Shown: one piece after another, positions 12 to 24,666 of the stretch
Position numbering within the stretch: the stretch's first letter is position 1
Layout of the letters: the number at the start of each line of letters is the position of its first letter
Virus record (IMG/VR): IMGVR_UViG_3300008259_003073
DNA length: 64,000 nt
Direction: 5' to 3' (one strand)
DNA from: a virus
Lineage: Duplodnaviria > Caudoviricetes
Translations under genes and position numbers: made by a program
Notes under the pieces: generated by a model
What the model was told of the DNA's origin: nothing
The model's database searches: none
Seen by the model: only the letters and a program-made list of their open reading frames with translations

Positions 12-554
12 TTAGTTTTCGTAGTATAATGCAGGCCATTCAACAATAATATGAACCCCTCCTTCATTATACGCATTTGTGTATATCTTATAAATATCGT
101 TTGGATTTTTTAATTCCCAAATTTTTGTAAATTGTAATATAGATTTGAATTCTTGTGTATAATCGTTTCTATGTTGAATGCCTGGGTCTAATGGATTGGT
201 GCTTCCTACACCTACTCTAATTATAATATTTGCATTTTTACCAGTCATGTTTTCAAACTTATCAGCATGATTTATTAACTGATTTGCCGCAGATACTAAA
301 AAATCCCATCGTGGATAGAATGATATAACGGTTTTTCCTGTAATTGCCAATCCTAAACTGATTCCCATTTGAGTTTCTTCCATAACAGGTAGCTCAATCA
401 TTTTTTCTTTTGGTACTTCCGTTAAGGTTGTACTCATTGGATTTCCAGCATAAACTATTTGTTGTCCAATGAAGATTGTATCTTCTTTTTGGGCAAGAAA
501 TGTCATTGCTTTGGATAATTCATCTTTATACGGAGATGTTTGTGGAGTACTCAT
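12..554 (-). CDS. ThDP-dependent enzyme beta subunit (PDH E1-beta/transketolase pyrimidine-binding domain only)
   Basis: IFIGQ, IELPVMEETQMG, YPRWDF, NQLINH and IIRVGVGS...QH motifs; 180 aa, lacks the transketolase C-terminal domain. Confidence 0.8.
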   Translation of the reverse strand: MSTPQTSPYKDELSKAMTFLAQKEDTIFIGQQIVYAGNPMSTTLTEVPKEKMIELPVMEETQMGISLGLAITGKTVISFYPRWDFLVSAANQLINHADKFENMTGKNANIIIRVGVGSTNPLDPGIQHRNDYTQEFKSILQFTKIWELKNPNDIYKIYTNAYNEGGVHIIVEWPALYYEN

Positions 555-555
555 A

Positions 556-1683
556 TTATTTGTTTAAATGATTAAAATTATGACCTATGCAAATCTTATC
601 GTTTACAAGGGTATGATTATTTATTTTATTTAGTTCTTCTAAAAATTCAGGAAACAATTCATGCTCTTCATTAAATACCTGTAATTCTTTTAATGTATCC
701 GAATCATAGGTTCCCCAATCTACTAATTGTCTATAATTTATGTCCAAATGAAATGTTGAATCTTTAAATATATTGGTTACTAATTCATAAAACGCAAACA
801 TTTCTTTGTAATTGTGTTTACTCACAACCATAGAAACAATAAACCATCCTATTGTATCAACAGTTGATAAAAACTTTAGATTTTTAATTAACCTATCCCA
901 ATTACCATTTAATCTCGTTTTATTTTCATAGGTATCTTTTGTAGCAGCATCTATACTAACTTCAATTGTTTTGATGTAAGGACTTGCTTTCATTTGATTC
1001 CACAATTTTTCATCTAATAAATTACCATTTGTAATTATTTGCAATTGTTCTAAATTAGGATATTTAGATATGTCAAAATTTATTAAATAATCTCTATAAA
1101 TTTTTGAATAAAATGGGTCTCCACTACCTGTTATCATAATTCTTTTTAGATTACTCGCAAAGTTATCTTCTATAGATTTTAGTAAATGTAGTTTTGCGTT
1201 ATGTTGTGGTGATTCTAAATTATCATTTGGAATTAGAGATATTCTACAAGATGGGCATTTTAAATTGCAACTTCTATCAAACCCAAATAAAATTTCTTCT
1301 GGTGAAGTTTTAAAATTTACAATATCTTCTTCTGTGTGGATATTGTATACTTCTCTAAATTCTTCAATTTTCCTAAAAAAATATGGGGTTCTATCAGTAT
1401 TTATTAGTTCATTTAATCTTGGACATATCGTATGGTCGCAATATTTATAGCTACCGTCTAAAACGGATTTACGAATATTTTGTGCCCGTACTGATGTCCA
1501 ATTTCTCATTACATCATCGGTTTCATCTACTGGAAACCAATTTTCATTTCCATTAGAATCTACTCTGATATTGTGTGGTGCCCAAGATGGGCAACACACA
1601 AATTGAGATACAGTTTGTACATCGGAATACATAAATGGCATTTCACAAACGTATTTTTTAAGTATCTCTTTTTTATCATTCAT
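556..1683 (-). CDS. Radical SAM protein with N-terminal Cys-rich (twitch/SPASM-like) segment
   Basis: CNLKCPSC cluster motif; TGSGDPF, TNG, SIDAAT; N-terminal CEMPF..CCPSW..YCDHTICP; paralog of 62239..63288. Confidence 0.85.
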   Translation of the reverse strand: MNDKKEILKKYVCEMPFMYSDVQTVSQFVCCPSWAPHNIRVDSNGNENWFPVDETDDVMRNWTSVRAQNIRKSVLDGSYKYCDHTICPRLNELINTDRTPYFFRKIEEFREVYNIHTEEDIVNFKTSPEEILFGFDRSCNLKCPSCRISLIPNDNLESPQHNAKLHLLKSIEDNFASNLKRIMITGSGDPFYSKIYRDYLINFDISKYPNLEQLQIITNGNLLDEKLWNQMKASPYIKTIEVSIDAATKDTYENKTRLNGNWDRLIKNLKFLSTVDTIGWFIVSMVVSKHNYKEMFAFYELVTNIFKDSTFHLDINYRQLVDWGTYDSDTLKELQVFNEEHELFPEFLEELNKINNHTLVNDKICIGHNFNHLNK

Positions 1684-2675
1684 TATGGTTTCGAATTTGG
1701 ATTGTATTGATGTTTGTTTGTTTTATACCACTCAATGGTTTCTTTTAGAGCTTGTTTTAAATCTCTTTTTGGTTTCCAACCCAAATCATTAATCTTTTTA
1801 GAAGATAATAATCGAATCGGAATCATTGGTGCTTTATTATTTACATACTCAATAGGATTAGTGTTTCCATCTAATTCTTTAATTGTGGCAAGTGTTTCGT
1901 TTACTGTAAATCCTTCACCATAACATACATTGAAAATATCATATGTATCATTGTTCTCTGCAACAAAGATAAAACCATCTGCCATATCTTCAACGTGCAA
2001 CAAATCTCTCACTTCTGTTCCATCCCCCCAAACAGGAATAGGATTCAATCCATCTGCTACTTTACGGATGTTAGCAGGAGTAACGTGACACTTTTCGTAA
2101 TCAAATTTATCATTTGGTCCGAATGCATTAGATGGTCTAACAATCAAACATTGCATTGGTTCGTGAATCTGATTAGAAAAGAAATCACATAACATCTCAC
2201 CATACCGTTTCATACCACCAACTGCTTTGTAAACTGGTAACATTGGAGTTGCGTGTACATTTATATCTTCAGTACAAAATTCAGTACCCATATCTGGATA
2301 TGTTGTATTTGATGAAATAAATAAGAATTTACGAACTTTATTTTTCCAACTTTGTTCCATTAAATTCGTATTCATCTCCACATTTGGAGTGACGTGAAGT
2401 AATGGATTGAATTTGGTATCCAACGCGTTTGATGTATTTGCTGCACAATGGAATACTACATCTACATCTTTACTAACCAACTCACAAAACTCTGCAGTTT
2501 GTAAATCTCCTTTAATGTGTTCTACATTTTCAGTACCTTCGAAATCGTTTCTTAAATCTCTACTAAATGAGGTTGAGCGTAGGTTTTTGTACCCCTTTTC
2601 CCAAAGTAATCTTAATAAATGTGAACCAATAAATCCACTTGCACCTGTAACTAAAATCTTGTCTGTTTTTTTCAT
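1683..2675 (-). CDS. NAD(P)-dependent nucleotide-sugar epimerase/reductase, GDP-L-fucose synthase-like SDR
   Basis: TGASGFIG Rossmann motif; RPSNAFGPND, HVTPA, WGDG..VRD.LHV.D. Confidence 0.85.
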   Translation of the reverse strand: MKKTDKILVTGASGFIGSHLLRLLWEKGYKNLRSTSFSRDLRNDFEGTENVEHIKGDLQTAEFCELVSKDVDVVFHCAANTSNALDTKFNPLLHVTPNVEMNTNLMEQSWKNKVRKFLFISSNTTYPDMGTEFCTEDINVHATPMLPVYKAVGGMKRYGEMLCDFFSNQIHEPMQCLIVRPSNAFGPNDKFDYEKCHVTPANIRKVADGLNPIPVWGDGTEVRDLLHVEDMADGFIFVAENNDTYDIFNVCYGEGFTVNETLATIKELDGNTNPIEYVNNKAPMIPIRLLSSKKINDLGWKPKRDLKQALKETIEWYKTNKHQYNPNSKP

Positions 2676-2683
2676 AACTTTTT

Positions 2684-3727
2684 TTATTTAAATATATCCC
2701 ATTTTAAAACTACATCATTTACAAATTTATGAGTTAATATGGATGATGTGTGTCCATACCAACTTCTTTCTAAATACTTTTTTTGTTCCTCAATACTCAT
2801 ACCGTTCATCTCTCTCCATAAAACTTTTGGCAGATTATCTTTCTCCAATTCGAAATTAAAATTTCTTATACTCCATTCTATTATTCCTCCGTATAAAGAT
2901 ACTAAATTTTCTTCAAAAAACCAAAAATATCTACTAAAATCTATCTTATCTGCATAAGTTTTTACATACGCATTATCAAATTCTAATTGTTTTTGTTCCC
3001 AAGTATTACAAATATCTTTATTTTCAATTATACACTCATAAACTGATTTATTGGTTGGTGTATGATAATATGGTGGGGTTCTACCTTCTCTTAAATAATT
3101 TTTAGAAAAGTTATTACTCATATTAAAAAACTTTATTTTTGTAATTCCATTTATTTCTAAAAAGTTGAGCAATAATAAAATATATTCGAACCATTCAAAA
3201 TATCTTTCATTATAAGTCATAACTTTATCCAACCATTCAAATGTAACTGGGTCTATATTAATAGGATTTTTGGTTGGATTGAAACCACCAGTTAAATGAA
3301 AATAACCATGTTCGTATTCTGTTGTTTTATCTTTACCACCTATTAAGTAATCACTGGTATGTACCCAGCTATCATTTTGTTTAATATAACTGATTGCAGG
3401 GTTTTTGTTAGATTCATATTTTTCAGGTGAAATAAAAAATGAATTTCGTGTCAGAGTTGTCCATTGAGCAACTACCGATATATCATTTGGGTTTACACCT
3501 TGCTTTAATAAATCAGAAACTTTGTAAATAATAGAACGAGCAATTGTTTTATTATCATGTGTAATAGTTCCATAATTATGTAATGTGTGTGTATCTTTTA
3601 ATTTTTCTTGCAACCAATTGGCCCAAGTCCAATTTTCTATCGGGTCTCGTTCCCATCTTCTTTCATCACCAATATTAATTCTAAAATTGTTAGTAAATGA
3701 ACAACCTGATACTACTATATGTTTCAT
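2684..3727 (-). CDS. SGNH/GDSL-like hydrolase or acyltransferase
   Basis: VVSGCSFT block I motif; C-terminal YGH. Confidence 0.55.
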   Translation of the reverse strand: MKHIVVSGCSFTNNFRINIGDERRWERDPIENWTWANWLQEKLKDTHTLHNYGTITHDNKTIARSIIYKVSDLLKQGVNPNDISVVAQWTTLTRNSFFISPEKYESNKNPAISYIKQNDSWVHTSDYLIGGKDKTTEYEHGYFHLTGGFNPTKNPINIDPVTFEWLDKVMTYNERYFEWFEYILLLLNFLEINGITKIKFFNMSNNFSKNYLREGRTPPYYHTPTNKSVYECIIENKDICNTWEQKQLEFDNAYVKTYADKIDFSRYFWFFEENLVSLYGGIIEWSIRNFNFELEKDNLPKVLWREMNGMSIEEQKKYLERSWYGHTSSILTHKFVNDVVLKWDIFK

Positions 3728-4440
3728 ATATAATTTAATGTTTGTAATTTATTTGATAGAAAATTTGCCCACATTTCATGTCCTTCTTTATTAGGATGTT
3801 CATTTTCAGTTGTTTTAGTGTATCCACCAAATGTTTCTTTTAAAAAATTTGGATAATTTGATATTTCATTATCTGAAATCATGCAGTTATCCCATCCAAA
3901 AAAGTGCAAATGTTTATAACCATTTAATTCCAAATATGCATATAGTGATTTTATATAATTTTTTGTTTTATTTATTTGATATTCTGTATCTAAAAAATAT
4001 CTTATAAATCTTTGAAAATCATTATCATATAATTCTATTAATTTTTTTCTGTCTTCATCCGTTCTATTATAATCTATATTTTCATTCATTACAAATTTAG
4101 TAAAATTCCCATAAAAATTTACATCTTTTAGTATTTTATCTGCCGATGCGTGTAATGCGTTTGGTATTGTAAAATACCAGTTCTTATTATTGTGTGTTGT
4201 AATAAGTTCTGTACGAATATAATTCGTCCATTGAATTATTAATACATCTTCTTTTTTAAATTCTTCATTTAAAATATAAAATACTTTTCTAAAAACATAA
4301 TCGTTGGATGCTCCACAATTTCCAAAGTTATAACAATCTACTTTATGTTTTTCAGAAAGTAATTTTGTATAATTTTCTATTTCACAATTTTCTAACCCCT
4401 GACCTTCTGTAAACGAGCATCCAACGGAATATAATTTCAT
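3724..4440 (-). CDS. SGNH/GDSL-like hydrolase or acyltransferase
   Basis: VGCSFT, NFGNCGASND, EHPNKEGH. Confidence 0.65.
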   Translation of the reverse strand: MKLYSVGCSFTEGQGLENCEIENYTKLLSEKHKVDCYNFGNCGASNDYVFRKVFYILNEEFKKEDVLIIQWTNYIRTELITTHNNKNWYFTIPNALHASADKILKDVNFYGNFTKFVMNENIDYNRTDEDRKKLIELYDNDFQRFIRYFLDTEYQINKTKNYIKSLYAYLELNGYKHLHFFGWDNCMISDNEISNYPNFLKETFGGYTKTTENEHPNKEGHEMWANFLSNKLQTLNYI

Positions 4441-5438
4441 TACAATCTACTTTTGTATTCTAAAATTGATTTTGTTAAACCTTCTTTCAAAGATGTTTGT
4501 GGTAAAATTCCATATTTTTTTTGCTTATCAGCTCCTAAACATCTAATTGGGTCACCATTTGTTTTGGTTTCATCCCATACTATGTTTTTAGTTTTGCCTG
4601 TAATTTCGGTATAACACTCGACAATGGTTTCAATTGTATCTTTGATACTTACTGCTTCTGCACATCCAAAGTTGATAATATCCCTAACTTCTTTTTTAAC
4701 AACATCAATCGATGCCTGTGCAACATCATCTCCAAATACAAAATCCCTTTTAGATGAACCATTACCCCAACAAACCATATCATCACCTTCTACATTGAAT
4801 AGTTTCCAAATGTTAGATGATATTACAGTTGCATCTTGTGCAAAGTTATCGTTTGTTCCGTAGATATTTGAAGGTCTGATTACAGTCCAATTATCCCAAC
4901 CATACTGAACTCTCAATGAATCCAAAGTAAGTTCTCCCATTCTTTTTGTCCAACCTGGATGCCAATCTAAACGAGATGGAGTTGATGCCCAAGTTTCTTC
5001 CTGATTCCATGTATCTTCTTCGTTCATTATATCTGCTGGTCTATAAACCCCAACCGATGAAAGATACACAAACCAATCAACTTTGGCATCAAACGATGCT
5101 TTAATCATATTGGTGTTAAACATCAACATTGGGAATAGATAATCAGCAGGACAAGTTGATGACCTTGCTGGTGAACCTTTTACTCCTGCGATATGTAATA
5201 CAATATTAATATCATCTAACTTAAATAAATTCTCACAATGTGAAAGATATGTTAAATCGGTTTTAACCAATTCCAATCTATCTGTGTATTGTGCTTTTAA
5301 GAAGTTTAAATTTTCACTAAATTTAAGGTCTACTGCATATACTTTATCAGCTCCTTCTTCTAAACATTTTCTAACGGTTGGTAATCCTACCAACCCATTT
5401 GCTCCTGTAACCAGAACGGTTTTTCCTTTTAATTCCAT
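4440..5438 (-). CDS. NAD(P)-dependent nucleotide-sugar epimerase/reductase, GDP-L-fucose synthase-like SDR
   Basis: TGANGLVG, RPSNIYG.NDNF, WGNGS.KRDFVF. Confidence 0.85.
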   Translation of the reverse strand: MELKGKTVLVTGANGLVGLPTVRKCLEEGADKVYAVDLKFSENLNFLKAQYTDRLELVKTDLTYLSHCENLFKLDDINIVLHIAGVKGSPARSSTCPADYLFPMLMFNTNMIKASFDAKVDWFVYLSSVGVYRPADIMNEEDTWNQEETWASTPSRLDWHPGWTKRMGELTLDSLRVQYGWDNWTVIRPSNIYGTNDNFAQDATVISSNIWKLFNVEGDDMVCWGNGSSKRDFVFGDDVAQASIDVVKKEVRDIINFGCAEAVSIKDTIETIVECYTEITGKTKNIVWDETKTNGDPIRCLGADKQKKYGILPQTSLKEGLTKSILEYKSRL

Positions 5439-5445: not shown

Positions 5446-6876
5446 TTATTTTGTTGTGTAATCTATTTTTATTTTTTCAAATATTTCATCAAAACACTCA
5501 TAGTTTTCAAATGAGTATATATGCTTTTGGTTATATAATAATATATCAATTATTGAATAATACCAATTATGTAATTCCTCAATTGGCATGTTTTTTAGTT
5601 TAATTAATTCTTTTTCTAAAAGTAACATTCGCTTTTTAGGGTCTTTTTCTAAATCATAACTTTCATCTATAAATGGTTCAAAGGTTTTAAACCCTAATCT
5701 CCGTAATTCTGCTAATGTTAAATAATCCCCAAATACTAAAAATGGTTGTAAATTTGATATTGGTTTAAATATTTTTTCTGAAAGGAATACGTTTGGTCCA
5801 AAGAATGTTTCGGTTACTAAATGAAAATATGAATTTGCGTACCATTCTTTTTTATTATTTCTAACTCCAAATGCTCTTTTTTTATCAGATGGCAATTCCT
5901 TTGTATCATCTTCATAAGGTAATAATTTCTCTAATTCAGATGTATATTTTTCAACATTTTCCTCCGTATCCTCATATACTTTATTTACAATATTTTTTAA
6001 TATATTTTTTTCTAATTTTTCAATAAATGTAAATAATCCATCTTTTAATAAATCGTATTTTAGTGCAAAATATCCCAACATAGTTCTTTGTGGTTTATTC
6101 ATTGTTCTATTTGGGGATAAAAATTTATGTTTTCTAATTTTAGTGGAATCTAAATCTTTTTCTTCAAGTAACTCACACAAATATCCCAAATTACCAATCA
6201 TTGGAAATGAATTTATTTCATCGGCATATCCTCTTATAAATAAATGCCCATTATATATTTTTATTTTACTATCAGGATATATTTCATAGTATTCCGAAAA
6301 TTTACTTCCTCCTAAAATTATGATATTAGAAGCATCTACTCCTAATTCATTTAATTGGATTTCAAATTGTTGTATATTGTGTGAATCATATAAAGGGTCA
6401 TGTATCATATTTACTAATATTTTTACTTTGCCCGATTTAATTAAATCAAATAATTCAGGTTCTATAATGTCTTTTAAAAACCAAGTATATTCTGTATCAT
6501 TTAACAAAAAACTGTTTTTATTATGTAGTGCAGAAAGTGTATCTTTTATTTCTAATGGATATACATAAATGAAATCATCATCTTTAATTTGATTAAATGA
6601 TATTATATTTTTAGGAAAATTTCTAGAAAAATAATTAAACAATTCCGAATGGTCGAATTTTATACCCTTTTGTTCTGATTTATATTGTAGTATTTCATAC
6701 CAATCTATTTTTAAATTGTTTTTTAAAACATATTGAATAAATTTAGTAATAACAGGATGCATTCCATTACCAAATGGCTTGAGTTGACCGTGGTCAATAT
6801 ACCAATCGGTATATATCATTTTAAAATTTGAACCATGTATTGCATTCATATTAATATCTGTATATTTTTTTAACAT
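5446..6876 (-). CDS. Putative glycosyltransferase with GT10 (fucosyltransferase)-like C-terminal motif
   Basis: YFHLVTETF..FLSEKIFKPI..PFLVFG..LGFKTF..DESYD resembles GT10 F.LAFENS..YITEK..PIV.G; paralogs at 21027 and 23566. Confidence 0.45.
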   Translation of the reverse strand: MLKKYTDINMNAIHGSNFKMIYTDWYIDHGQLKPFGNGMHPVITKFIQYVLKNNLKIDWYEILQYKSEQKGIKFDHSELFNYFSRNFPKNIISFNQIKDDDFIYVYPLEIKDTLSALHNKNSFLLNDTEYTWFLKDIIEPELFDLIKSGKVKILVNMIHDPLYDSHNIQQFEIQLNELGVDASNIIILGGSKFSEYYEIYPDSKIKIYNGHLFIRGYADEINSFPMIGNLGYLCELLEEKDLDSTKIRKHKFLSPNRTMNKPQRTMLGYFALKYDLLKDGLFTFIEKLEKNILKNIVNKVYEDTEENVEKYTSELEKLLPYEDDTKELPSDKKRAFGVRNNKKEWYANSYFHLVTETFFGPNVFLSEKIFKPISNLQPFLVFGDYLTLAELRRLGFKTFEPFIDESYDLEKDPKKRMLLLEKELIKLKNMPIEELHNWYYSIIDILLYNQKHIYSFENYECFDEIFEKIKIDYTTK

Positions 6877-16656: not shown

Positions 16657-16998
16657 TTATACTTTTTCTATATCTTTTTTAGGTCTTGCTCTACGAGGTG
16701 GCGGTAATTCTGCATCATTTTCAATTTGAGCAGGTTCGGTGGGAATACTTCCTTTAAAAGATGTTTCTGAACTAGATGATGACCCATTTTCTTTTGCAAT
16801 GTTGTAGAATTCATAAAGATAATACGCAACTCTATCACTCCATTCTGATTTGTTAATTTCTTCAAACCAAATAGTAAGTGCATCTAAAGAATTGGCAATT
16901 TTTTCCAATGCTTTAACTTTTCTAGTTTCCAATACTACCGATTCCAAATTTTGTTCAGGTGTAGTTGTTGTGTCAGATTGTAACTTAACTTTCGCCAT
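16657..16998 (-). CDS. Hypothetical protein
   Basis: 113-aa ORF packed between operon genes; no recognised motif. Confidence 0.7.
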   Translation of the reverse strand: MAKVKLQSDTTTTPEQNLESVVLETRKVKALEKIANSLDALTIWFEEINKSEWSDRVAYYLYEFYNIAKENGSSSSSETSFKGSIPTEPAQIENDAELPPPRRARPKKDIEKV

Positions 16999-18476: not shown

Positions 18477-19325
18477 TTATATAGATATAATTTTTTTAAA
18501 TAATTGTTTCCATTTTGAGTATCCTGAATAATGATAAGTTGGTGATAATTCGAATCCAAATCTCACATCATCCAATGGTAATTTAAATCTAAATTTTGCC
18601 AATTCTCTATACATTTTTCGATATTCTTCTGAATATGAGTAATCTTTATTTATGTTTGCAACTGCTCTAATTCTTTCTCCACAAGTACTATCCCATTTAA
18701 AATGATGTACTTGCACACTGCATTTGTTAATTGGTGCAATCAGTGGATGATTCCAACCTTGCCATTTCCAAGTAGTATGTCCGTCTATTTTTGCATAATG
18801 CTGTCCGTTTGTAATTTCAACATACCCCTTTGCTATACAAATTTTATTAGGATTAGCACCACTTAACGGAAATCTAAAAAATCCTGCGTATGGAAACTTT
18901 TCAAATATGTCATCCGTATCTAATAATTCAACAAATTCACCATCCTCTCCAATTCTATCTATAAATCCACCTCTTACCATTTCCCATCCATTTACATCAC
19001 AATTTGATGTGATACTTCGTAATGAATCCGAATAGACATGGAACTCATCATCATCGGATATTACCCACCAATCGTTTGGATGAGTTGATTTTACTTCATT
19101 GTAAAGTCTTGTTACCTTTTCCCAATTATACTTCTCTTCAATTACCGTTTTTACAATTTTAGCATTTGGAAATTGAGATACTATGGTTTTAACTTCTGAT
19201 AAATTAGATTGCTCTTCCCAATCATATACAACAATATACATTTCATCCACTTTATCTTTGTAGTGGTTTAACATATGTTTTAATGTTGTTGTTCTAGAAC
19301 CTGTTACCGTAACTAATCTAATCAT
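18477..19325 (-). CDS. GT2-like (GT-A fold) glycosyltransferase
   Basis: MLNHY..VD, WWVISDDDEF (DxD-like), HHFKW. Confidence 0.65.
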   Translation of the reverse strand: MIRLVTVTGSRTTTLKHMLNHYKDKVDEMYIVVYDWEEQSNLSEVKTIVSQFPNAKIVKTVIEEKYNWEKVTRLYNEVKSTHPNDWWVISDDDEFHVYSDSLRSITSNCDVNGWEMVRGGFIDRIGEDGEFVELLDTDDIFEKFPYAGFFRFPLSGANPNKICIAKGYVEITNGQHYAKIDGHTTWKWQGWNHPLIAPINKCSVQVHHFKWDSTCGERIRAVANINKDYSYSEEYRKMYRELAKFRFKLPLDDVRFGFELSPTYHYSGYSKWKQLFKKIISI

Positions 19326-20080
19326 TTTCTTTTAACTAATGTTAATCCAGTTGATGATGGTTTATTTTTTACTATTCCAAAATTGAATAAATCAAATGTT
19401 TCCCACTTTGGATTATCTTTAAGTTCTTTAGCAAATGTAATTGGTCCATGCCAATCATCAAAATCACCTCTATCTTTTACTTCGTTTGTAACAATGTAAC
19501 TATCTGCATAATTAGGGTCCGTATCGTGGATAGAAATGATACCATTTGGAGAAAGTAACTGCGAATATAGTTCAAAATCCTCTTTTACATTCTCATAACT
19601 ATGACCAGCATCTATATGTAAATAATCTATCTGAATATCATTAAGAATAAAGTAATTATGAAAAGCGTCTTCTGTTGTTTTATTAATAATTCGTGGATGA
19701 AATGTTCTTCTGAAAAATGATTCTTCTCTAAACCAATTTACATGTCCACCAATACCGTTCATAGCATCAACAACATAAGTAACACCAATATCTCCCCAAT
19801 TTAAATCAGAATTTCCTTCAAAAATGCCTTGTTTATGTAAATCGTAACGAGCCTGTGTCATTAATCTAGGTACAAATCCTCCACCTGAACCTAAACATAC
19901 ACAAGTTTTTGCTCTCATATACTGAATAAGAGAATAGATTATTAAACCATCTCCTAAATGATTATCAGTTGCTCCATGTGACCATCTATACGGAACTGGA
20001 ACTTCTTCTTGCTCCTGATATTCGTTATATTCTAAATTGTTTGTTAGATAATTCTTTAAGTATTGTAAATCTTGTAGCAT
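19322..20080 (-). CDS. Class I SAM-dependent methyltransferase (Methyltransf_24-like)
   Basis: CLGSGGGF, IDYLHIDAGHSYE.V..DF, G.I..HD. Confidence 0.8.
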   Translation of the reverse strand: MLQDLQYLKNYLTNNLEYNEYQEQEEVPVPYRWSHGATDNHLGDGLIIYSLIQYMRAKTCVCLGSGGGFVPRLMTQARYDLHKQGIFEGNSDLNWGDIGVTYVVDAMNGIGGHVNWFREESFFRRTFHPRIINKTTEDAFHNYFILNDIQIDYLHIDAGHSYENVKEDFELYSQLLSPNGIISIHDTDPNYADSYIVTNEVKDRGDFDDWHGPITFAKELKDNPKWETFDLFNFGIVKNKPSSTGLTLVKRK

Positions 20081-20107
20081 TAGATTAGTTGATAAAGTAA
20101 AGTGAAT

Positions 20108-20138
20108 ACAATATACTAAAAAAAATCTAAATTTACAA
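20108..20138 (-). promoter_or_regulatory. Candidate Bacteroidota-type -33/-7 promoter (weaker match)
   Basis: Minus strand TTGT-N19-TATATTGT in the intergenic gap upstream of 20080. Confidence 0.4.
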
Positions 20139-20142
20139 CACT

Positions 20143-21030
20143 TTATTCATTTATTTTAGTATGATATTTTTCTACATCATCTTTAATTTTTGGCCATAGG
20201 AAATTTGTAAAGAAATCAATTGATTGTTCTTTTGATGGATGAAACCAACCACCCAACATTGTTTGATTTTTGTTGGCAAAGTATTCCAATATACCACCTC
20301 CAAATCCTTTTATCCTAACATCATCGGTAAATATAAATTTATCAAAATCAATTTTTTCTAATAGTTCTGGTATTATATCTGCTTCAAACCAAGAATTTTC
20401 AAATGGTTCTAATTTATCAAATAAACTTTCTGTTTTTAATGTAGCGTAATTTCCTGTATCCACATCAGCTCTTTTTTGAAGATTATATAATTTGTCTACC
20501 GCAACATCCATTTGAAACAAATTACCAATTGTAATCATTTTATATGGTATATTTTTTTCTTTAAAATACTGTTGAGTGTGATATATACTTTCTAATGTTT
20601 GTAATATAGCACCATATATTGAATAATAATTTTCAAAAAATTCTTTCCCATACCCAAATATATCAGTTCCATTTAACATATAGTTTATTTTACCAATTCT
20701 TTCAGGATGCATACTCATTCTTGGAAAATTTTTTGCTCTATCTTCGTTTACAAATACAGGATAATCCCATCTATCGATTGTAGACCATTGAACTATTGCA
20801 TAATCTACATTCGAGTGTGGTTTAGTTGGATTTTTGTAATGTGGTGAATTTAAAAATCTGAATACCTTTCTTCGCATTATATCATTTCCAGAACCACCAC
20901 ATGCTGCATTATACACATCAAACGGGTCTGATGTTTTTTTTGGATTAAATAAGGAATATCCTTCCATTTCAAACCCAATAGGCCAGTTTTCATCTCCTGC
21001 AGTAAAAGAGCATCCGTTTATTAATATCAT
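20143..21030 (-). CDS. SGNH/GDSL-like hydrolase or acyltransferase
   Basis: INGCSFT, NAACGGSGND, QWS..DR, WFHPS. Confidence 0.6.
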   Translation of the reverse strand: MILINGCSFTAGDENWPIGFEMEGYSLFNPKKTSDPFDVYNAACGGSGNDIMRRKVFRFLNSPHYKNPTKPHSNVDYAIVQWSTIDRWDYPVFVNEDRAKNFPRMSMHPERIGKINYMLNGTDIFGYGKEFFENYYSIYGAILQTLESIYHTQQYFKEKNIPYKMITIGNLFQMDVAVDKLYNLQKRADVDTGNYATLKTESLFDKLEPFENSWFEADIIPELLEKIDFDKFIFTDDVRIKGFGGGILEYFANKNQTMLGGWFHPSKEQSIDFFTNFLWPKIKDDVEKYHTKINE

Positions 21031-22349
21031 AGCAATTTATTTATATTATTCATTATATTACAATAATGTGTTATTAATTTTTGTTTGTTTTCTCGTAATA
21101 TTACTGTATTTTTTATAAAAACATTTTTAATGTTATCTACATTTTTATCTTTTAAAAAATTCACTATCATATCGATTTGTTCTAATTCATTTTTATTTTC
21201 AATTCCATTTAATCCAAAATCTTCTAAAAATAAATTTATACCTATTCTATTATATTCTTCATATACTTTATTTGAACCAAATATTAATGCAAACTTTTCA
21301 GATAATACTGGTTTTATTGATTTTTCTGTAAAGAATCCATATTTTAAATTAAAAATACAATGAGTTTCTCCAACCACTTCAAAATATGATAAATCGTATT
21401 CTTTTTCTCTAAAATAATAAAGTAAATGGTCAAATTCAAATGGAGCATTTAATGGTGTAACATTTATTTCATTTCGTAAAGATTTGAGTTTATCAAAATT
21501 TTTAGTTGTAAAGTATTTTATATGATTATCGGTATGTGTTTTAGTATGGTCTGTGTATATATGCCCTTCACTAACCATTTGTGAGTATTCTAATAAAAAT
21601 TTTTCATTTATACAATTCAAACCTGTTTTTAATATATCAAATTCTTTTGCTTTTAACAAAAATTGAACTCTGTGAAATCTCGGTTTCAATGCCTGACTAG
21701 AATATACATATGGTTTTTCAGCATTATGTGTTATATTGAGATTTTTAAACACATCAGAAAAATTGTTATTATACGGTAATTTACCATTAGTATGATGTGG
21801 AAATAAAAAATGTGTAAATTGTCCCTCCGCCATTAAATGAAACATACAATAGAATGAATCATAGTGAAAGTTTTTACCTTCATTAAATAATTCATAGTCT
21901 GTTATTTTAATATAATTAAATTTAAAATCATATCTAAAATATTTTTCATCTATTTCATATTCGTTTGCTTCTAAAAATGCAAAATTGAATAAAACTTTTG
22001 TGTTTCTTTCAACATATAATTTTTCCAATTTATCAAATTCAATTGGATTTTTTTTCATCAATGGTAAATAGAATTCACTCCATATTTTTCTATCAACCAC
22101 AATTATTAAATTATCAATTGGGTTTGAATACAATAAATCAAAAGTAGTTATACCATCAAATGATTTTAAATGATTTAATATATTATATGGGTTTTGTATA
22201 TAATGATGTATTTCAATTTCTTCACCACCATTATTTATAACAATTTTATGATGCTTTTCTATTTCTATTACATTTACAGAAATTAAATTTGCTTCTGGAA
22301 ACAAATTTTGTAACTCATTATATGTTGCTAATATATTTAGTGACCTCAT
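21027..22349 (-). CDS. Putative glycosyltransferase, GT10-like C-terminal motif
   Basis: YFEVVGET..FFTEKSIKP..F.LIFG; paralog of 5446 and 23566. Confidence 0.4.
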   Translation of the reverse strand: MRSLNILATYNELQNLFPEANLISVNVIEIEKHHKIVINNGGEEIEIHHYIQNPYNILNHLKSFDGITTFDLLYSNPIDNLIIVVDRKIWSEFYLPLMKKNPIEFDKLEKLYVERNTKVLFNFAFLEANEYEIDEKYFRYDFKFNYIKITDYELFNEGKNFHYDSFYCMFHLMAEGQFTHFLFPHHTNGKLPYNNNFSDVFKNLNITHNAEKPYVYSSQALKPRFHRVQFLLKAKEFDILKTGLNCINEKFLLEYSQMVSEGHIYTDHTKTHTDNHIKYFTTKNFDKLKSLRNEINVTPLNAPFEFDHLLYYFREKEYDLSYFEVVGETHCIFNLKYGFFTEKSIKPVLSEKFALIFGSNKVYEEYNRIGINLFLEDFGLNGIENKNELEQIDMIVNFLKDKNVDNIKNVFIKNTVILRENKQKLITHYCNIMNNINKLL

Positions 22350-23301
22350 TTATCCAATTTTGTTTGTTTGTATAAAAATATAATCTTGTTGATAGTTTAT
22401 GAAATTCAGAACTAACTATATCCATATCATCTTCTAAAATTTGTAAATACATTTGATGAAATTCTCCTTTACTATTTGCCCTATATTTGTAATCGATGTG
22501 TGGCATCCAATCGGTATGTATAATTGGAATTTTACCATTATCAACTGCGTCAAAAATTGCATATCCAAATGGTTCTTTTGTATAACATCCGTGAAATATT
22601 TGAAAATTACTTTCAAAAAACTTTTGATGGAATCGATAATCGAATTCTATAAACCTATGGTAATCTGAATTGATTTTAGAACCTTCTAACATTCGTTTGT
22701 AATCATATTTGTTTGAAAATATAATTGATGGAATGTAATCTAAATAATGTGCGTTTTTTCTGGTTTCACATCTAGCAGCATATCCAATTTTGTTAGATAT
22801 AACGCCTGTAAATGGTTTTTTATTTTTCCATTCGTAATAATTTGTGATTGTAATGGTATTTGGATACATTTTATGCATAGTATCGTTTTCATATCCAATC
22901 CAAACTATATTATCGGAATTATCTAGTATTTCTTTTTGCCATTTCCAATCCACTTTAGTCATTAGATTTTCATACTCATCGTTCAATCCTAACATATCAG
23001 GAATAAAAGCATGCACAAAAGTAGTATGAATTTTGTGTAAATAATCTTTCAGTAAATCGTATGGTTTGTAGGGGTGATGTAAGATTACAATTTTATCACA
23101 TTGTTGAAAAATTTTACGAACTTCATTATCGTTTTCGTAAGTATAAACCGCACCTTCTTCTCTAATCAAAGGTCTGCCAACTACAACTATTTTGTAATCT
23201 TCTTTTACTAATGGCAATATATTTTCTACAAAGTTATTGCACCAAATATCTGAACCACCAATAATGTTTTTACCATAACCTGTTGTGATAAATACTATCA
23301 T
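22318..23301 (-). CDS. GT-B fold glycosyltransferase (GT4-like)
   Basis: N-terminal IIGGSD.W; KEPFGYAIFDAVDNGKIPII donor-binding motif. Confidence 0.65.
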   Translation of the reverse strand: MIVFITTGYGKNIIGGSDIWCNNFVENILPLVKEDYKIVVVGRPLIREEGAVYTYENDNEVRKIFQQCDKIVILHHPYKPYDLLKDYLHKIHTTFVHAFIPDMLGLNDEYENLMTKVDWKWQKEILDNSDNIVWIGYENDTMHKMYPNTITITNYYEWKNKKPFTGVISNKIGYAARCETRKNAHYLDYIPSIIFSNKYDYKRMLEGSKINSDYHRFIEFDYRFHQKFFESNFQIFHGCYTKEPFGYAIFDAVDNGKIPIIHTDWMPHIDYKYRANSKGEFHQMYLQILEDDMDIVSSEFHKLSTRLYFYTNKQNWINEVTKYISNI

Positions 23302-23336
23302 ATATAACCACTAATCAATAACTTTTTAATTTCAGA

Positions 23337-23513
23337 TTATTCTGCAGATTCTACGGGAATTAAAATGTATTTGTGAGTATCACCACATTCGTTTGGTTCA
23401 TCAAAAATTTCTTGATGTTCGGCAATCCATTCCATTGCTTGCTCATTAGTTAATGATTCACAACCTTCAATGGGTGTATCTGTTCCTGATAATACTATTT
23501 TCCAAAGTTCCAT
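23337..23513 (-). CDS. Small acidic protein, 58 aa (not in ORF track)
   Basis: My translation: MELWKIVLSGTDTPIEGCESLTNEQAMEWIAEHQEIFDEPNECGDTHKYILIPVESAE; fills the gap and is preceded by ATATTTATA. Confidence 0.7.
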   Translation of the reverse strand: MELWKIVLSGTDTPIEGCESLTNEQAMEWIAEHQEIFDEPNECGDTHKYILIPVESAE

Positions 23514-23532
23514 AATTGTTAGTTTTATTTAG

Positions 23533-23541
23533 TATAAATAT
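23533..23541 (-). promoter_or_regulatory. ATATTTATA late-promoter candidate
   Basis: Same 9-mer recurs in the sense orientation in most intergenic gaps. Confidence 0.55.
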
Positions 23542-23565
23542 AATATTTTTTTGATAAAAGTGATA

Positions 23566-24666
23566 TTAGTTCAACAGTTTCTTAAAAGTGGTTTCCATTT
23601 CCGAATAATCATTTAGGTATTCTATCAACTTATATCTATTTTCTATAGATTTTTCTAAAGAATGATTATATCTTTCTTCTATTTCATCATCTGATGTATT
23701 ATATAACCATTCTGAAAACAGATTTATACTTCTTTCCACATCTTGGGCATTTGTTATATTTTGTACAAAATCAAAATTTAATAAATAAAATCCCATATTT
23801 TTAAGTTCATTTAATGTTTCACTACATGCTACTAAAATTATCGGTTTTCCAAAAAATAAACCCTTATATATTTTTTCTGTAATAAATCTTTCTGGATTAT
23901 TTCTATAATCCAATGTCTCAAATATTAAATTATAATTACAATATACATAATCATTTATTGCTTCGAAATGTTTGTACTTTGGATATAACAAATCATACGC
24001 ATCGTTTGCAGAATCTTTTGGATTTAACATTTTTTCAATTAAAGGATTATTATTAAGAATATCCATTCTCCAGCTACCAGTACGATGTGCTCTTATATAT
24101 GAAAATAACTTTGATTTAGATTTATCATATTTAGGTAATGATATATTATTTACCAATTCTTCTAAATAATAATATCCAATATAGTATCTGAAATATCTAA
24201 ATGGAAATAACAAATCAAAATAAAAATTAGATTCCGTTTCCAGTATTGGTCTTTTTGACCCCGAAAGGATTAAATCATAATTAATTTCCTGTACTCTTTT
24301 TACAAATGCAATATCAAATACTTCACCATAATGCCATATAAATACTTTTTTTATGTTTATATGATTGGTGTTTAACTCAAATAGTTTATCCTCTAATAAT
24401 TTATTTTCTAATTCTCCTGCAAATACTATACATCTATTAAATTTTTTAAAAAATTCAATTGGTTCTTTTATAAAATTACTTAAATTGTTGTAAAAATATA
24501 TTTTACTGTTTAGTTCTTTATGATAGTATATTTGCTTTTCAGAATTATCAAATTTTGTTGCATCAAATTCAGATAAATAATCTACATTTTCTTTACCGAA
24601 CATACCAAGCATTATTGGTAATTGGTTTGAATAAGTTATAAAAACCATTAGATTTTCCTCTATCAT
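23566..24666 (-). CDS. Putative glycosyltransferase, GT10-like C-terminal motif
   Basis: YNLIFETL..RFITEKIYKGLFFGKPIILV, the closest of the three to the GT10 motif. Confidence 0.5.
   Translation of the reverse strand: MIEENLMVFITYSNQLPIMLGMFGKENVDYLSEFDATKFDNSEKQIYYHKELNSKIYFYNNLSNFIKEPIEFFKKFNRCIVFAGELENKLLEDKLFELNTNHINIKKVFIWHYGEVFDIAFVKRVQEINYDLILSGSKRPILETESNFYFDLLFPFRYFRYYIGYYYLEELVNNISLPKYDKSKSKLFSYIRAHRTGSWRMDILNNNPLIEKMLNPKDSANDAYDLLYPKYKHFEAINDYVYCNYNLIFETLDYRNNPERFITEKIYKGLFFGKPIILVACSETLNELKNMGFYLLNFDFVQNITNAQDVERSINLFSEWLYNTSDDEIEERYNHSLEKSIENRYKLIEYLNDYSEMETTFKKLLN

What the first reader, a model, noticed from the sequence alone, without database searches (positions are those of the whole stretch)
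12..24666. ~25-kb soluble glycan-building island directly downstream of the tail fibre: candidate phage virion-glycosylation system
Seen: about 25 contiguous same-strand genes follow the S/T-rich tail fibre, with ATATTTATA motifs at 30650 and 23533. They include at least 8 GT or GT-like proteins (3 GT7-LamG, 3 GT10-like, GT2, GT-B), a PRTase-like protein, RfbC, 3 SDRs, a ThDP pair, a methyltransferase, 3 SGNH proteins and 3 radical SAM enzymes. I see no transmembrane protein, flippase or undecaprenyl-linked initiator, and no nucleobase-modifying enzyme (thymidylate synthase/hydroxymethylase homolog). Known: GtrABC-type O-antigen conversion needs membrane components; virion glycosylation is documented for PBCV-1, Mimiviridae and some mycobacteriophages. 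Inference: the island makes its own donors and builds and decorates a complex glycan on virion proteins in the cytoplasm. Caveat: a weak host-type promoter at 20108-20138 could drive earlier expression of part of it.
Basis: partly seen in the sequence, partly recalled or inferred. Interest (0 to 1): 0.82.

Follow-up and report, generated by a model that had tools for sequence, protein, structure and literature searches.

The report
Phage sugar-building island beside tail fibre
An uncultured large freshwater phage carries about 27 soluble sugar-building and sugar-attaching genes between its tail-fibre and head genes; they most likely coat its fibres with a complex sugar chain, but no experiment shows what the sugars are attached to.

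Summary
Window 12-24666, all on the minus strand, is an unbroken run of soluble glycan enzymes:
- three GT7 enzymes with a LamG domain;
- a GT4-like GT-B;
- three GT-B proteins with a GT10-like motif;
- a weak GT-A;
- three SDRs, RfbC, a split ThDP pair and three radical SAM enzymes;
- a methyltransferase, a HAD phosphatase and three SGNH-like proteins.

No protein has a transmembrane helix. The island runs about 1.6 kb past the window's left edge and ends before a polyprotein, terminase and portal.

The "PRTase-like" call was not confirmed. "Makes its own donors" is overstated, because no sugar nucleotidyltransferase occurs in four complete relatives.

A core (GT-B, methyltransferase, GT-A, GT7-LamG genes, a 113-aa protein, N_Twi radical SAM) is collinear in 80 fetched IMG/VR contigs. 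It keeps the same genome position in two complete ~240-kb relatives.

Virion (fibre) glycosylation is my best reading, at about 0.5:
- the GT-B family has two copies per complete relative, each downstream of an S74-ended fibre;
- a promoter-like motif is shared with structural genes;
- two of four complete relatives lack any thymidylate-synthase-type enzyme.

It remains unproven. Host O-chain remodelling, as published for the "host recognition cluster" of pelagimyophages, is the main rival.

This scan has already noted similar islands on other DNA.

The parts
25393..30633 (-). Tail fibre, 1746 aa, with a C-terminal Peptidase_S74 chaperone domain. It is 24.6% Ser+Thr, the highest in the contig. 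Proposed acceptor.
   Evidence: Pfam PF13884, E 3.7e-16. Composition against a contig mean of 12.4 +/- 4.0%. Homologue within 10 kb in 45 of 80 loci.
30650..30658 (-). Promoter-like motif ATATTTATA, 16 nt upstream of the fibre gene.
   Evidence: 16 on the coding strand, 4 on the other, about 6 expected; 14 of 16 intergenic.
24663..25391 (-). 242-aa protein after the fibre. No family. Found only in close relatives.
23566..24666 (-). GT-B-fold protein with a GT10-like motif, paralogue 3. Variable part of the island.
   Evidence: Aligned in A1 with 5446-6876 and shares the invariant E..EK. Found in 4 of 80 loci.
23533..23541 (-). Promoter-like motif ATATTTATA at the head of the conserved core. 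A 58-aa ORF (23337-23513) follows it.
   Evidence: The same motif lies within 300 nt upstream of the GT-B gene in 15 of 69 relatives and of the methyltransferase gene in 19 of 70, against a 1.6% background.
22318..23301 (-). GT-B, GT4-like glycosyltransferase. First gene of the conserved core. This is the fibre-linked family.
   Evidence: Model pLDDT 86.5. Foldseek matches GlgM, BshA and PimA, E 2e-10. Found in 69 of 80 loci. Two copies per complete genome, each downstream of an S74 fibre.
21027..22349 (-). GT-B-fold protein with a GT10-like motif, paralogue 2. Variable.
20143..21030 (-). SGNH-like esterase or acyltransferase (GCSFT, GSGND, FHPS motifs). Variable.
   Evidence: Sequence read. 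No Pfam hit. Found in 16 of 80 loci.
19322..20080 (-). Class I SAM methyltransferase (Methyltransf_24), probably a sugar O-methyltransferase. Core.
   Evidence: PF13578, E 2.9e-12. Found in 75 of 80 loci.
18477..19325 (-). Probable GT-A glycosyltransferase with an invariant DDD. Core.
   Evidence: PF13704, E 2.2e-4, below the cut-off. Alignment A4. Found in 78 of 80 loci.
17005..18462 (-). GT7-LamG paralogue that lacks the WGxEDDD acidic motif, so a probable pseudo-enzyme or altered enzyme. Absent in some relatives.
   Evidence: Pfam. Sequence. Missing in L022 and L031.
16657..16998 (-). Conserved 113-aa protein: a helical core, a variable Ser/Thr/acidic linker, and an invariant RPKKD C-terminal tail. 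Role unknown.
   Evidence: Alignment A5. Found in 76 of 80 loci.
15221..16651 (-). GT7 (beta-4-galactosyltransferase-like) enzyme with a LamG domain inserted after WGFEDDD. Core.
   Evidence: Pfam. Nearest solved relatives are B4GALT7 and B4GALT1, E 1e-26. Invariant H71, D72, D74, W135, G136, E138, D139-D141 and H415 in A6.
13753..15219 (-). GT7-LamG enzyme (DID motif and WGMEDDD). Core.
   Evidence: Pfam. 199 related stretches in IMG/VR. 1643 proteins in the 5.8-billion set. None in 50,697 phage records.
12333..13748 (-). Radical SAM enzyme of the N_Twi_rSAM family. Core.
   Evidence: NF033640, 352.6 bits against a cut-off of 170. Found in 80 of 80 loci. Homologues occur in Bdellovibrionota chromosomes.
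11575..12354 (-). 259-aa protein with no Pfam hit. Other first-stage notes on related DNA read a 'free LamG' ORF in this relative position. I did not verify that.
   Evidence: Found in 38 of 80 loci.
10605..11570 (-). SDR sugar epimerase or reductase. YxxxK is present, but there is no RmlB-type DE pair.
   Evidence: Pfam and NCBIfam. Sequence.
10067..10603 (-). RmlC-type NDP-4-keto-6-deoxyhexose 3,5-epimerase.
   Evidence: PF00908, E 3e-32. TIGR01221, 105 bits, below the equivalog cut-off.
9441..10070 (-). ThDP-binding half (E1-alpha-like) of a split ThDP enzyme.
   Evidence: PF00676, E 1e-14. TIGR03182, E 1e-24.
8238..9437 (-). Radical SAM enzyme. The family is generic.
   Evidence: PF04055, E 3.7e-15. 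Only sub-threshold NCBIfam hits.
7810..8241 (-). Small HAD phosphatase of the PNKP-phosphatase type.
   Evidence: PF25109, E 2.4e-17.
6851..7810 (-). 319-aa protein of unknown family.
   Evidence: No Pfam or PDB match. The Atlas places it near clusters auto-named HAD hydrolase, score 0.95.
5446..6876 (-). GT-B-fold glycosyltransferase with a GT10-like E..(S/T)EK motif, paralogue 1.
   Evidence: Model pLDDT 76.8. VIA matches T4 BGT Z 10.3, EXT1 10.2, alpha-1,3-FucT 9.7, FUT9 9.6. Invariant E356, E367, K368.
4440..5438 (-). SDR, GDP-fucose-synthase-like epimerase/reductase.
3724..4440 (-). SGNH-like protein (GCSFT, GASND, EHPN motifs).
   Evidence: Sequence. No Pfam hit.
2684..3727 (-). SGNH-like / DUF6071-like protein.
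   Evidence: PF19547, E 1.4e-3, weak. A DUF6071 protein also sits in the Haliscomenobacter radical SAM cluster.
1683..2675 (-). SDR, GDP-fucose-synthase-like epimerase/reductase.
556..1683 (-). Radical SAM enzyme with a weak N_Twi-like N-terminus.
   Evidence: PF04055. NF033640, 50 bits, sub-threshold.
12..554 (-). Pyrimidine-binding half (E1-beta-like) of the split ThDP enzyme. Last island gene inside the window. One more gene (480 aa, contig 21626-23068) follows outside it.
   Evidence: PF02779, E 2.4e-5.. The 480-aa protein has homologues in bacterial radical SAM clusters.

Best explanation
The island is a cytoplasmic glycan assembly line. It most likely glycosylates the phage's own virion proteins, chiefly the Ser/Thr-rich, S74-ended tail fibres.

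Proposed sequence of events (inferred):
1. Host NDP-sugars are tailored by the variable 'donor' half of the island. This half holds an RmlC-type epimerase, three SDR epimerase/reductases, a split ThDP enzyme that could add a two-carbon branch to a keto-sugar, radical SAM enzymes and a HAD phosphatase.
2. The conserved 'core' half builds the chain directly on folded or folding fibre protein in the cytoplasm. This half holds the GT4-like GT-B, a GT-A, and two active GT7 enzymes whose inserted LamG lectin-like domain would hold the acceptor. It also holds a third, degenerate GT7-LamG, the 113-aa protein and the N_Twi radical SAM enzyme.
3. The methyltransferase and the SGNH-like enzymes decorate the chain.

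Shown here: the enzyme families, their solubility, the conserved core and its position, the GT-B/fibre pairing, and the shared promoter-like motif.

Inferred: the acceptor, the order of the steps, the sugars, and the timing.
For: 1. Position. The order fibre, island, polyprotein, TerL, portal is collinear in the complete relatives G001 (238 kb) and G004 (237 kb). A fibre homologue lies within 10 kb in 45 of 80 loci.

2. GT-B and fibre pairing. In four complete relatives the GT-B family has exactly two copies (one of them cut off by the end of the G003 record). Every copy lies downstream of a Peptidase_S74 fibre gene, and five of eight start within 160 nt of the S74 match. The second copy sits inside the tail module, in the order fibre, fibre, GT-B, 586-aa protein, sheath. 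It is 36% identical to the island copy and keeps the EPFGY..F(D/E)A motif.

3. Conservation. The core evolves at backbone-like rates and stays collinear. Against G001 the core is 59-87% identical, while portal is 84% and TerL 89%. Against G004 the core is 37-83% identical, while portal is 56% and TerL 64%. This fits a conserved phage-encoded acceptor better than a hypervariable host O-antigen.

4. Promoter motif. ATATTTATA is strongly strand- and intergenic-biased. It precedes the fibre, head, baseplate-region and polyprotein genes and also the island core. It recurs before the core in relatives, in 15 of 69 and 19 of 70 cases against a 1.6% background.

5. No island protein has a transmembrane helix.

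6. The GT7 domains are true relatives of animal B4GALT7 and B4GALT1, enzymes that act on protein-linked glycans. Their catalytic residues are invariant.

7. The fibres next to GT-B genes are the most Ser/Thr-rich proteins, at 24.6-28.7% against a mean of 12.4%.

8. Two of four complete relatives have no thymidylate-synthase-family gene.
Against: - There is no direct evidence that any virion protein is glycosylated.
- No cultured phage carries the core, so no proteomics exist.
- Soluble glycosyltransferases are also the norm for building undecaprenyl-linked O-antigen units, so the lack of membrane proteins does not discriminate.
- The published reading of analogous islands in pelagimyophages is host O-chain modification (PMC7029224).
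- A bipartite element like the one before the primase gene lies before the methyltransferase gene, so part of the island may be expressed earlier.
- Homologues of the accessory enzymes sit in uncharacterised chromosomal clusters of Bdellovibrionota and Saprospiraceae. Some of these lie near multi-pass membrane proteins.
- Tail fibres are commonly Ser/Thr-rich anyway.
- The fold matches of both GT-B families include the T4 DNA glucosyltransferases among tied hits.
Confidence: 0.5

Rival explanations
1. Host envelope remodelling. The soluble phage enzymes hijack the host's undecaprenyl-linked O-antigen, capsule or general O-glycosylation pathway during infection. This would change the cell surface and block superinfection or prevent progeny from being trapped on debris. 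It is the reading published for 'host recognition clusters'.
For: - Published analogue: pelagimyophage and cyanomyophage islands inside the structural region hold tail fibres, many glycosyltransferases, LPS-type sugar genes and radical SAM cassettes. The authors read them as O-chain modification (PMC7029224).
- The donor half of the island is variable between relatives, as expected if it tracks host serotypes.
- Homologous accessory enzymes occur in bacterial chromosomes, sometimes next to 9-TM proteins.
- An element like the one before the primase gene lies before the methyltransferase gene.
Against: - No initiating phosphoglycosyl transferase, flippase, polymerase or ligase is present in the island.
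- The glycosyltransferase core is conserved and collinear across phages that are only 56-64% identical in portal and TerL. That is unexpected for enzymes that must fit hypervariable host glycans.
- The GT-B paralogue sits inside the tail module between fibre and sheath genes.
Confidence: 0.25
2. A soluble product or another cytoplasmic acceptor. The island makes a free oligosaccharide, a glycosylated small molecule, or modifies a non-virion protein such as the conserved 113-aa protein. The aim would be host takeover or competition.
For: - Three to many radical SAM enzymes, a ThDP pair, a methyltransferase and acyl-esterase-like proteins resemble natural-product tailoring sets.
- Bacterial homologues form long arrays of soluble enzymes of unknown role.
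- A small conserved protein is embedded among the GT7 genes.
Against: - No scaffold-forming enzyme (PKS, NRPS, cyclitol or nucleoside core synthase) was found by Pfam.
- There are no exporters.
- The tight, duplicated fibre linkage of the GT-B family is left unexplained.
Confidence: 0.13
3. DNA hypermodification. The glycosyltransferases add sugars to modified bases in phage DNA, as in T4 and other hydroxymethyl-pyrimidine phages.
For: - Both GT-B models match the T4 alpha- and beta-glucosyltransferases among tied hits. For 5446-6876, BGT scores Z 10.3. For 22318-23301, AGT is rank 30.
- The Atlas lists an AGT cluster at 0.97 among look-alikes of 22318-23301.
Against: - No thymidylate-synthase or hydroxymethylase homologue in two of four complete relatives that keep the island, and none in the island.
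- GT4 enzymes match the 22318-23301 model better than AGT does.
- GT7 enzymes with lectin domains, RmlC, ThDP and SGNH enzymes have no precedent in DNA glycosylation.
Confidence: 0.07

Closest known systems
Host recognition cluster (HRC) of pelagimyophages and cyanomyophages (Zaragoza-Solas et al. 2020, PMC7029224)
   Same: It is a large island inside the structural region of aquatic T4-like myophages. It combines tail-fibre genes with many glycosyltransferases, deoxy-sugar genes and radical SAM cassettes. Part of it varies between relatives.
   Different: - The HRC is described as hypervariable, lies between VrlC and gp14, is dominated by GT8, and is read as host O-chain modification.
- Here a 7-9 gene core is conserved and collinear, and the island lies between the fibre and terminase.
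- The hallmark enzymes here are GT7-LamG, a fibre-linked GT4-like GT-B and N_Twi radical SAM.
- This phage is a distant T4 relative. The nearest cultured portals are Microcystis phage Mel-JY01 at 50% and Flavobacterium phage immuto at 47%.
Mycobacteriophage virion glycosylation (Che8, Corndog, Myrna; Freeman et al. 2023, as cited in PMC12619734)
   Same: Phage-encoded soluble glycosyltransferases sit beside structural genes, and the proposed acceptor is a virion protein in the cytoplasm.
   Different: - Those cassettes hold a few glycosyltransferases, and glycans were shown by mass spectrometry on capsid and tail-tube C-termini (as summarised).
- Here there are about 27 genes, including sugar-tailoring, radical SAM and ThDP enzymes.
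- The host is probably Gram-negative (Bacteroidota, an unchecked lead), and there are no experimental data.
- Homology to those glycosyltransferases was not tested.
Giant-virus capsid and fibril glycosylation (PBCV-1 Vp54; Mimivirus fibrils). This comparison rests on my own knowledge.
   Same: The virus-encoded machinery is cytoplasmic and independent of the ER and Golgi. It includes methyltransferases and sugar-nucleotide tailoring enzymes and builds complex glycans with methylated deoxy-sugars on virion proteins.
   Different: Those viruses are eukaryotic and their enzyme families differ. No homology was tested here.
'Moraphages', aquatic jumbo phages predicted to infect Bacteroidota (Perez-Hernandez et al. 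2025, PMC12619734)
   Same: - Mostly freshwater genomes of 200-307 kb, with distant links to ERM huge phages and Rhodothermus phage RM378. These are also portal relatives of this phage.
- Four of the core orthogroups are putative glycosyltransferases whose role was left open.
   Different: I could not check directly whether this contig belongs to that lineage. The paper does not describe the island, the GT7-LamG architecture or the fibre linkage.
Animal beta-1,4-galactosyltransferases B4GALT7 and B4GALT1 (CAZy GT7; PDB 3lw6, 1nmm)
   Same: They are the nearest solved relatives of the N-terminal 150 residues, at E 1e-26. The DxD and WGxEDDD motifs are conserved.
   Different: The phage enzymes have no membrane anchor and carry a roughly 240-aa LamG domain inserted between the WGxEDDD motif and the C-terminal His segment. 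One paralogue lacks the acidic motif.

Membership tests
CAZy GT7 / Pfam Glyco_transf_7N+7C | Both Pfam halves score above their gathering cut-offs. | tested here: met
   13753-15219 scores 68.2 and 66.0 bits. 15221-16651 scores 70.7 and 62.0 bits. The cut-offs are 27 and 23. For 17005-18462 the 7C half scores 22.5, just below the cut-off.
CAZy GT7 / Pfam Glyco_transf_7N+7C | DxD metal site and WGxEDDD acceptor/catalytic loop. | tested here: met
   H71, D72, D74, W135, G136, E138 and D139-D141 are invariant in 11 orthologues of 15221-16651. The acidic loop is absent in 17005-18462 (sequence).
CAZy GT7 / Pfam Glyco_transf_7N+7C | A contiguous catalytic domain. | tested here: not met
   Laminin_G_3 occupies residues about 171-352, between the 7C match and the C-terminal segment. 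So these are a variant architecture.
NCBIfam NF033640 N_Twi_rSAM | Score above the curated cut-off, and a CX3CX2C cluster. | tested here: met
   12333-13748 scores 352.6 bits against a cut-off of 170 and covers profile positions 3-398. C143, C147 and C150 are invariant.
GT4-like retaining GT-B glycosyltransferases | Two-Rossmann GT-B fold with a C-terminal E-x7-E-type motif. | tested here: met
   The model has pLDDT 86.5. Top Foldseek hits are GlgM, BshA, PimA and tll1591 (E 2e-10 to 4e-9, TM 0.58-0.68). The invariant motif is E243-PFGY-x-IF-x-A. No Pfam hit.
CAZy GT10 fucosyltransferases (for 5446-6876 and its paralogues) | A Pfam PF00852 match, or GT10-specific structural similarity. | tested here: inconclusive
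   No Pfam hit. The fold is GT-B, and alpha-1,3-FucT (Z 9.7) and FUT9 (Z 9.6) tie with T4 BGT (Z 10.3) and EXT1 (Z 10.2). The nearest named Atlas clusters are PF00852, at only 0.79-0.80. Invariant E356, E367 and K368 resemble the FEN...TEK motif, which I recalled from memory.
GtrABC-type O-antigen conversion | Membrane components: the GtrA flippase, the GtrB bactoprenol glucosyltransferase and the GtrC serotype-specific transferase. | tested here: not met
   No predicted transmembrane segment in any island protein.
T4-type DNA glycosylation | A hydroxymethyl-pyrimidine pathway (thymidylate-synthase-family hydroxymethylase) in the same genome. | tested here: not met
   PF00303 is absent from G001 and G004, both rated 100% complete by CheckV and both island-bearing. 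It is present in G002 and G003. The window's own record is about 50% complete, so it is not decisive for this genome.
Mycobacteriophage-type virion glycosylation | Glycan shown covalently attached to virion proteins. | not testable with these tools
   No cultured member exists. This needs mass spectrometry of particles.
Mycobacteriophage-type virion glycosylation | Glycosyltransferase genes embedded in or next to the structural gene module. | tested here: met
Host recognition cluster of pelagimyophages and cyanomyophages | An island within the structural region that holds fibres, glycosyltransferases, LPS-type genes and radical SAM cassettes. | tested here: met
   Definition taken from PMC7029224.
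Host recognition cluster of pelagimyophages and cyanomyophages | Hypervariable and non-syntenic between relatives. | tested here: not met
   The core, from GT-B to N_Twi radical SAM, is collinear in 80 loci and in two complete genomes. Only the donor half and a few inserts vary.

The most novel reading that the evidence does not exclude
A globally distributed clade of freshwater jumbo phages runs a wholly cytoplasmic, mucin-like protein O-glycosylation pathway on its tail fibres. The pathway uses eukaryote-type GT7 enzymes that carry an inserted lectin domain, together with a fibre-dedicated GT-B. It builds a methylated, acylated, branched-sugar glycan whose donor chemistry (radical SAM and ThDP) is swapped between strains. 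That would add a second, sugar-based layer of host-range or defence-evasion variation on top of fibre sequence.
Probability: 0.4. Interest if true: 0.8.

Novelty: new variant of a known kind. Interest (0 to 1): 0.6.

Why it matters
- If the glycan sits on the fibres, virion glycosylation would not be a curiosity of a few mycobacteriophages and giant eukaryotic viruses. It would be a major, conserved investment of abundant freshwater phages: about 27 genes, roughly 11% of a ~240-kb genome.
- That would bear on adsorption, host range, particle stability and evasion of host or grazer recognition.
- It would also challenge the usual annotation of such islands as 'LPS auxiliary metabolic genes' that modify the host.
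- The island is a source of unstudied enzymes: GT7 with an inserted LamG domain, N_Twi radical SAM, and a minimal split ThDP enzyme. These also occur in predatory Bdellovibrionota.
- Even if the target turns out to be the host envelope, the conserved core and the fibre-linked GT-B give concrete, testable candidates.

Tried and rejected
- Megablast of the island and of the structural region against 50,697 phage records found no match.
- tblastn of GT7-LamG against cultured phages found none. The GT-B hit only one uncultured 484-kb record.
- Profile searches of four unknown families (A1-A4) against PDB sequences gave nothing significant.
- PHROGs on ten structural-region proteins gave only baseplate wedge and carbamoyltransferase.
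- The T4 late promoter TATAAATA is not enriched on the coding strand: 10 found against about 24 expected. I rejected it as this phage's late signal.
- Complex prediction of the 113-aa protein with GT7-LamG (15221-16651) returned no verdict, with score 0.00. This is no evidence either way.
- A single-protein GT7-LamG scan of 185,579 species genomes found no relative. The method reaches only close relatives.
- An estuary metatranscriptome library (X20) holds contigs 85-99% alike over 29 of 30 bins of 11000-30999, covering both fibre and island. These are contigs, DNA carry-over cannot be excluded, and they say nothing on timing, so I did not use them as evidence.
- Pfam on ten neighbours of the Haliscomenobacter radical SAM cluster gave only DUF6071, so the cellular role of the homologous clusters stays unknown.
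- The genome search 'relatives' is not available for virus records.
- I considered the downstream 1731-aa protein, with its N-terminal cytidylyltransferase-like domain, as the missing sugar activator. I rejected it as island-specific because a cytidylyltransferase-like gene sits in the same place in Mel-JY01, which lacks the island.

Full report
**What is there**

The window is bases 23265-87264 of a 94,186-bp IMG/VR virus record that CheckV rates about 50% complete. Every gene lies on the minus strand, and G+C is about 30%.

From the 1746-aa fibre gene (25393-30633; Peptidase_S74 at its C-terminus) down to base 12 there is an almost gap-free run of 26 ORFs. Pfam and NCBIfam identify:
- three GT7N+GT7C+Laminin_G_3 proteins;
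- three extended SDRs, two of them closest to GDP-fucose synthase;
- an RmlC-type 3,5-epimerase;
- two halves of a minimal ThDP enzyme (E1-alpha-like at 9441-10070, E1-beta-like at 12-554);
- a Methyltransf_24 enzyme;
- a HAD_PNKP-type phosphatase;
- three radical SAM enzymes, one of which (12333-13748) is a full member of NF033640 N_Twi_rSAM (352.6 bits against a cut-off of 170).

I folded two Pfam-blank families:
- 22318-23301 is a confident GT-B (pLDDT 86.5). It is closest to GT4 enzymes such as GlgM, BshA and PimA.
- The family of 5446-6876, 21027-22349 and 23566-24666 is also GT-B (pLDDT 76.8). Alpha-1,3-fucosyltransferases tie with T4 BGT and EXT1 at Z about 10. An invariant E...EK pair is present.

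So 'GT10-like' is plausible but unproven. The 'GT2' is a sub-threshold GT-A with an invariant DDD. The 'SGNH' calls rest on motifs only. 'PRTase-like' could not be confirmed. A Kyte-Doolittle scan finds no transmembrane helix in any island protein.

**Boundaries and surroundings**

The rest of the contig shows one more island gene beyond the window. It is a 480-aa protein whose only relatives lie in bacterial radical SAM clusters.

Downstream of it come, in order:
- an ATATTTATA motif;
- TerL;
- a T4-type portal.

Upstream of the fibre lie a P4H-like 2OG-Fe(II) oxygenase, a fused Mre11-Rad50 and a primase. The island is therefore about 26.3 kb and sits between fibre and head genes.

The nearest cultured portals are Microcystis phage Mel-JY01 (50%) and Flavobacterium phage immuto (47%). 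Mel-JY01 has no such island at the equivalent place.

**Relatives**

- GT7-LamG has 199 related stretches in IMG/VR.
- It has 1643 relatives among 5.8 billion proteins. The 120 listed are unnamed or called hypothetical.
- It has none in 50,697 deposited phage genomes.

In the 80 fetched loci a core is collinear. Its order is GT-B, (inserts), methyltransferase, GT-A, (GT7-LamG), 113-aa protein, GT7-LamG, GT7-LamG, N_Twi radical SAM. Each element is found in 69-80 of 80 loci. The sugar-tailoring half and a few inserts vary.

In two complete relatives (238 and 237 kb) the whole order is kept: baseplate, primase, SbcCD, fibre, island, polyprotein, TerL, portal. Core identities track the backbone. 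Against G001 the core is 59-87% identical, with portal at 84% and TerL at 89%. Against G004 the core is 37-83% identical, with portal at 56% and TerL at 64%.

Near-identical DNA occurs in lake and freshwater metagenomes of at least 12 studies.

**What bears on the target**

1. GT-B and fibre pairing. All four complete relatives have two copies of the GT-B family, one of them cut off by the end of the G003 record. Each copy lies downstream of an S74-ended fibre gene, and five of eight are the very next gene. The second copy lies in the tail module, in the order fibre, fibre, GT-B, 586-aa protein, sheath. It is 36% identical to the island copy and keeps the nucleotide-sugar motif. These are two independent loci pairing this enzyme with fibres, and they are the strongest argument for a fibre acceptor.

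2. Promoter motif. ATATTTATA occurs 16 times on the coding strand against 4 on the other and about 6 expected, and 14 of the 16 are intergenic. It precedes fibre, fibre-like, head and polyprotein genes, and also the island core at 23533. It recurs before the core in relatives at 22-27% against a 1.6% background. The T4 motif TATAAATA is not enriched. The motif also precedes the primase gene, there together with an upstream TTGTAAAT. A similar bipartite element lies before the methyltransferase gene. Timing is therefore suggestive, not shown.

3. DNA route. PF00303 is absent from two of four complete island-bearing relatives. This weighs against hydroxymethyl-pyrimidine-based DNA glycosylation.

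4. Donors. No PF00483 nucleotidyltransferase occurs in any complete relative, so donors start from host NDP-sugars.

5. GT7 catalytic residues. The GT7 domains are real relatives of B4GALT7 and B4GALT1 (E 1e-26), and their catalytic residues are invariant in the orthologues of 15221-16651. One paralogue (17005-18462) lacks the acidic loop and is dispensable in some relatives.

6. Composition. Fibres next to GT-B genes are the most Ser/Thr-rich proteins, at 24.6-28.7% against 12.4 +/- 4.0%. This is weak evidence, since fibres are often so.

**Cellular counterparts**

N_Twi radical SAM homologues (35-46% identical) are chromosomal in many MAGs assigned to Bdellovibrionota (for example Bacteriovoracaceae), and in Haliscomenobacter and Neomarinimicrobiota MAGs. 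They often form tandem arrays with DUF6071, 5446-like, 480-aa-like, carbamoyltransferase and ThDP-pair genes.

These clusters are equally uncharacterised. Some lie next to multi-pass membrane proteins, so they do not settle the target.

Two 'MAG' contigs carry the phage island and are probably mis-binned phage DNA: one labelled Pelagibacterales, and a 248-kb one labelled Flavobacteriaceae.

**Comparison with the literature**

- The closest published description is the 'host recognition cluster' of pelagimyophages and cyanomyophages. It holds fibres, glycosyltransferases, LPS-type genes and radical SAM cassettes inside the structural region, and it is read as host O-chain modification (PMC7029224).
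- The 'moraphage' paper reports putative glycosyltransferases among the core orthogroups of a lineage that resembles this phage in habitat, size and relatives. It leaves their role open (PMC12619734).
- Neither paper describes the conserved core, the GT7-LamG architecture or the duplicated fibre/GT-B pairing.
- My searches found no paper on these.
- This scan has flagged similar islands on other DNA. Those notes are not independent evidence.

**Verdict**

- A soluble, phage-encoded glycan assembly and decoration line tied to the fibres is well supported.
- Virion glycosylation is the best reading, at about 0.5, and is unproven.
- Host-surface remodelling is a serious rival, at about 0.25.

This is a new variant of a known kind.

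Noticed in passing
L093:6958-19951 (G001:206958-219951); also G004:110571-119512 and G002 near 148064-149359: A second fibre locus in complete relatives. One or two S74-ended fibres (27-29% Ser+Thr in the four I measured, in G001 and G004) are followed directly by a paralogue of the island GT-B. In G001 a 586-aa unknown protein and the tail sheath follow; in G004 a 553-aa ORF follows. The region lies beyond the end of the window's own contig.
   Followed up: yes
L123, L126, L137, L143, L149, L169 (MAG chromosomal contigs labelled Bdellovibrionales/Bdellovibrionia, Bacteriovoracaceae, Bdellovibrionaceae and Haliscomenobacter): Chromosomal arrays of up to seven to nine tandem N_Twi-type radical SAM paralogues, with soluble partners of unknown function: DUF6071, 5446-like GT-B, 480-aa-like, carbamoyltransferase and a split ThDP pair. 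This is an unstudied cellular counterpart of the phage island's accessory half.
   Followed up: partly
L102 (VHCC01000006.1, 'Pelagibacterales' MAG) and L105 (CBFHJJ010000001.1, a 248-kb contig of a 'Flavobacteriaceae' MAG): Both contigs carry the collinear phage island core, so they are probably phage genomes binned into bacterial MAGs. The Flavobacteriaceae bin could be a host hint or a binning artefact.
   Followed up: no
window 35744-35730, 58642-58610, 51176-51140, 20137-20100 (minus strand): A bipartite element, TTGTAAAT followed after about 14-17 nt by TATATT(T/G)(A/T), precedes the primase gene, 57709-58608, 50603-51127 and the island methyltransferase gene. It may mark a promoter class different from the bare ATATTTATA sites before structural genes.
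   Followed up: partly
window 30907-31620: A prolyl-4-hydroxylase-type 2OG-Fe(II) oxygenase (PF13640) lies directly upstream of the fibre gene. It is kept there in G001. In G004 two weaker homologues sit inside the island instead. Hydroxylation of a fibre or glycan substrate is conceivable and untested.
   Followed up: no
window 31620-34778: One 1052-aa ORF fuses an Mre11-like metallophosphoesterase (residues 6-192) to a Rad50/SbcC-like ATPase (AAA_23, SMC_N). These are normally two proteins.
   Followed up: no
window 23337-23513: A 58-aa ORF lies between the ATATTTATA motif at 23533 and the GT-B gene. I did not check its conservation.
   Followed up: no
L086 (Ralstonia phage RsoM2USA, MG752970.1 202345-233685): This cultured 344-kb jumbo phage has an N_Twi radical SAM homologue (40% identical) in a same-strand block that follows its tail sheath gene and an SDR sugar epimerase. 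It could serve as an experimentally tractable model for the radical SAM family.
   Followed up: partly
window 53876-55573: A Nol/NodU-type carbamoyltransferase (phrog_1601, E 3e-125) sits among baseplate and structural genes. Homologues also accompany the bacterial radical SAM clusters.
   Followed up: no
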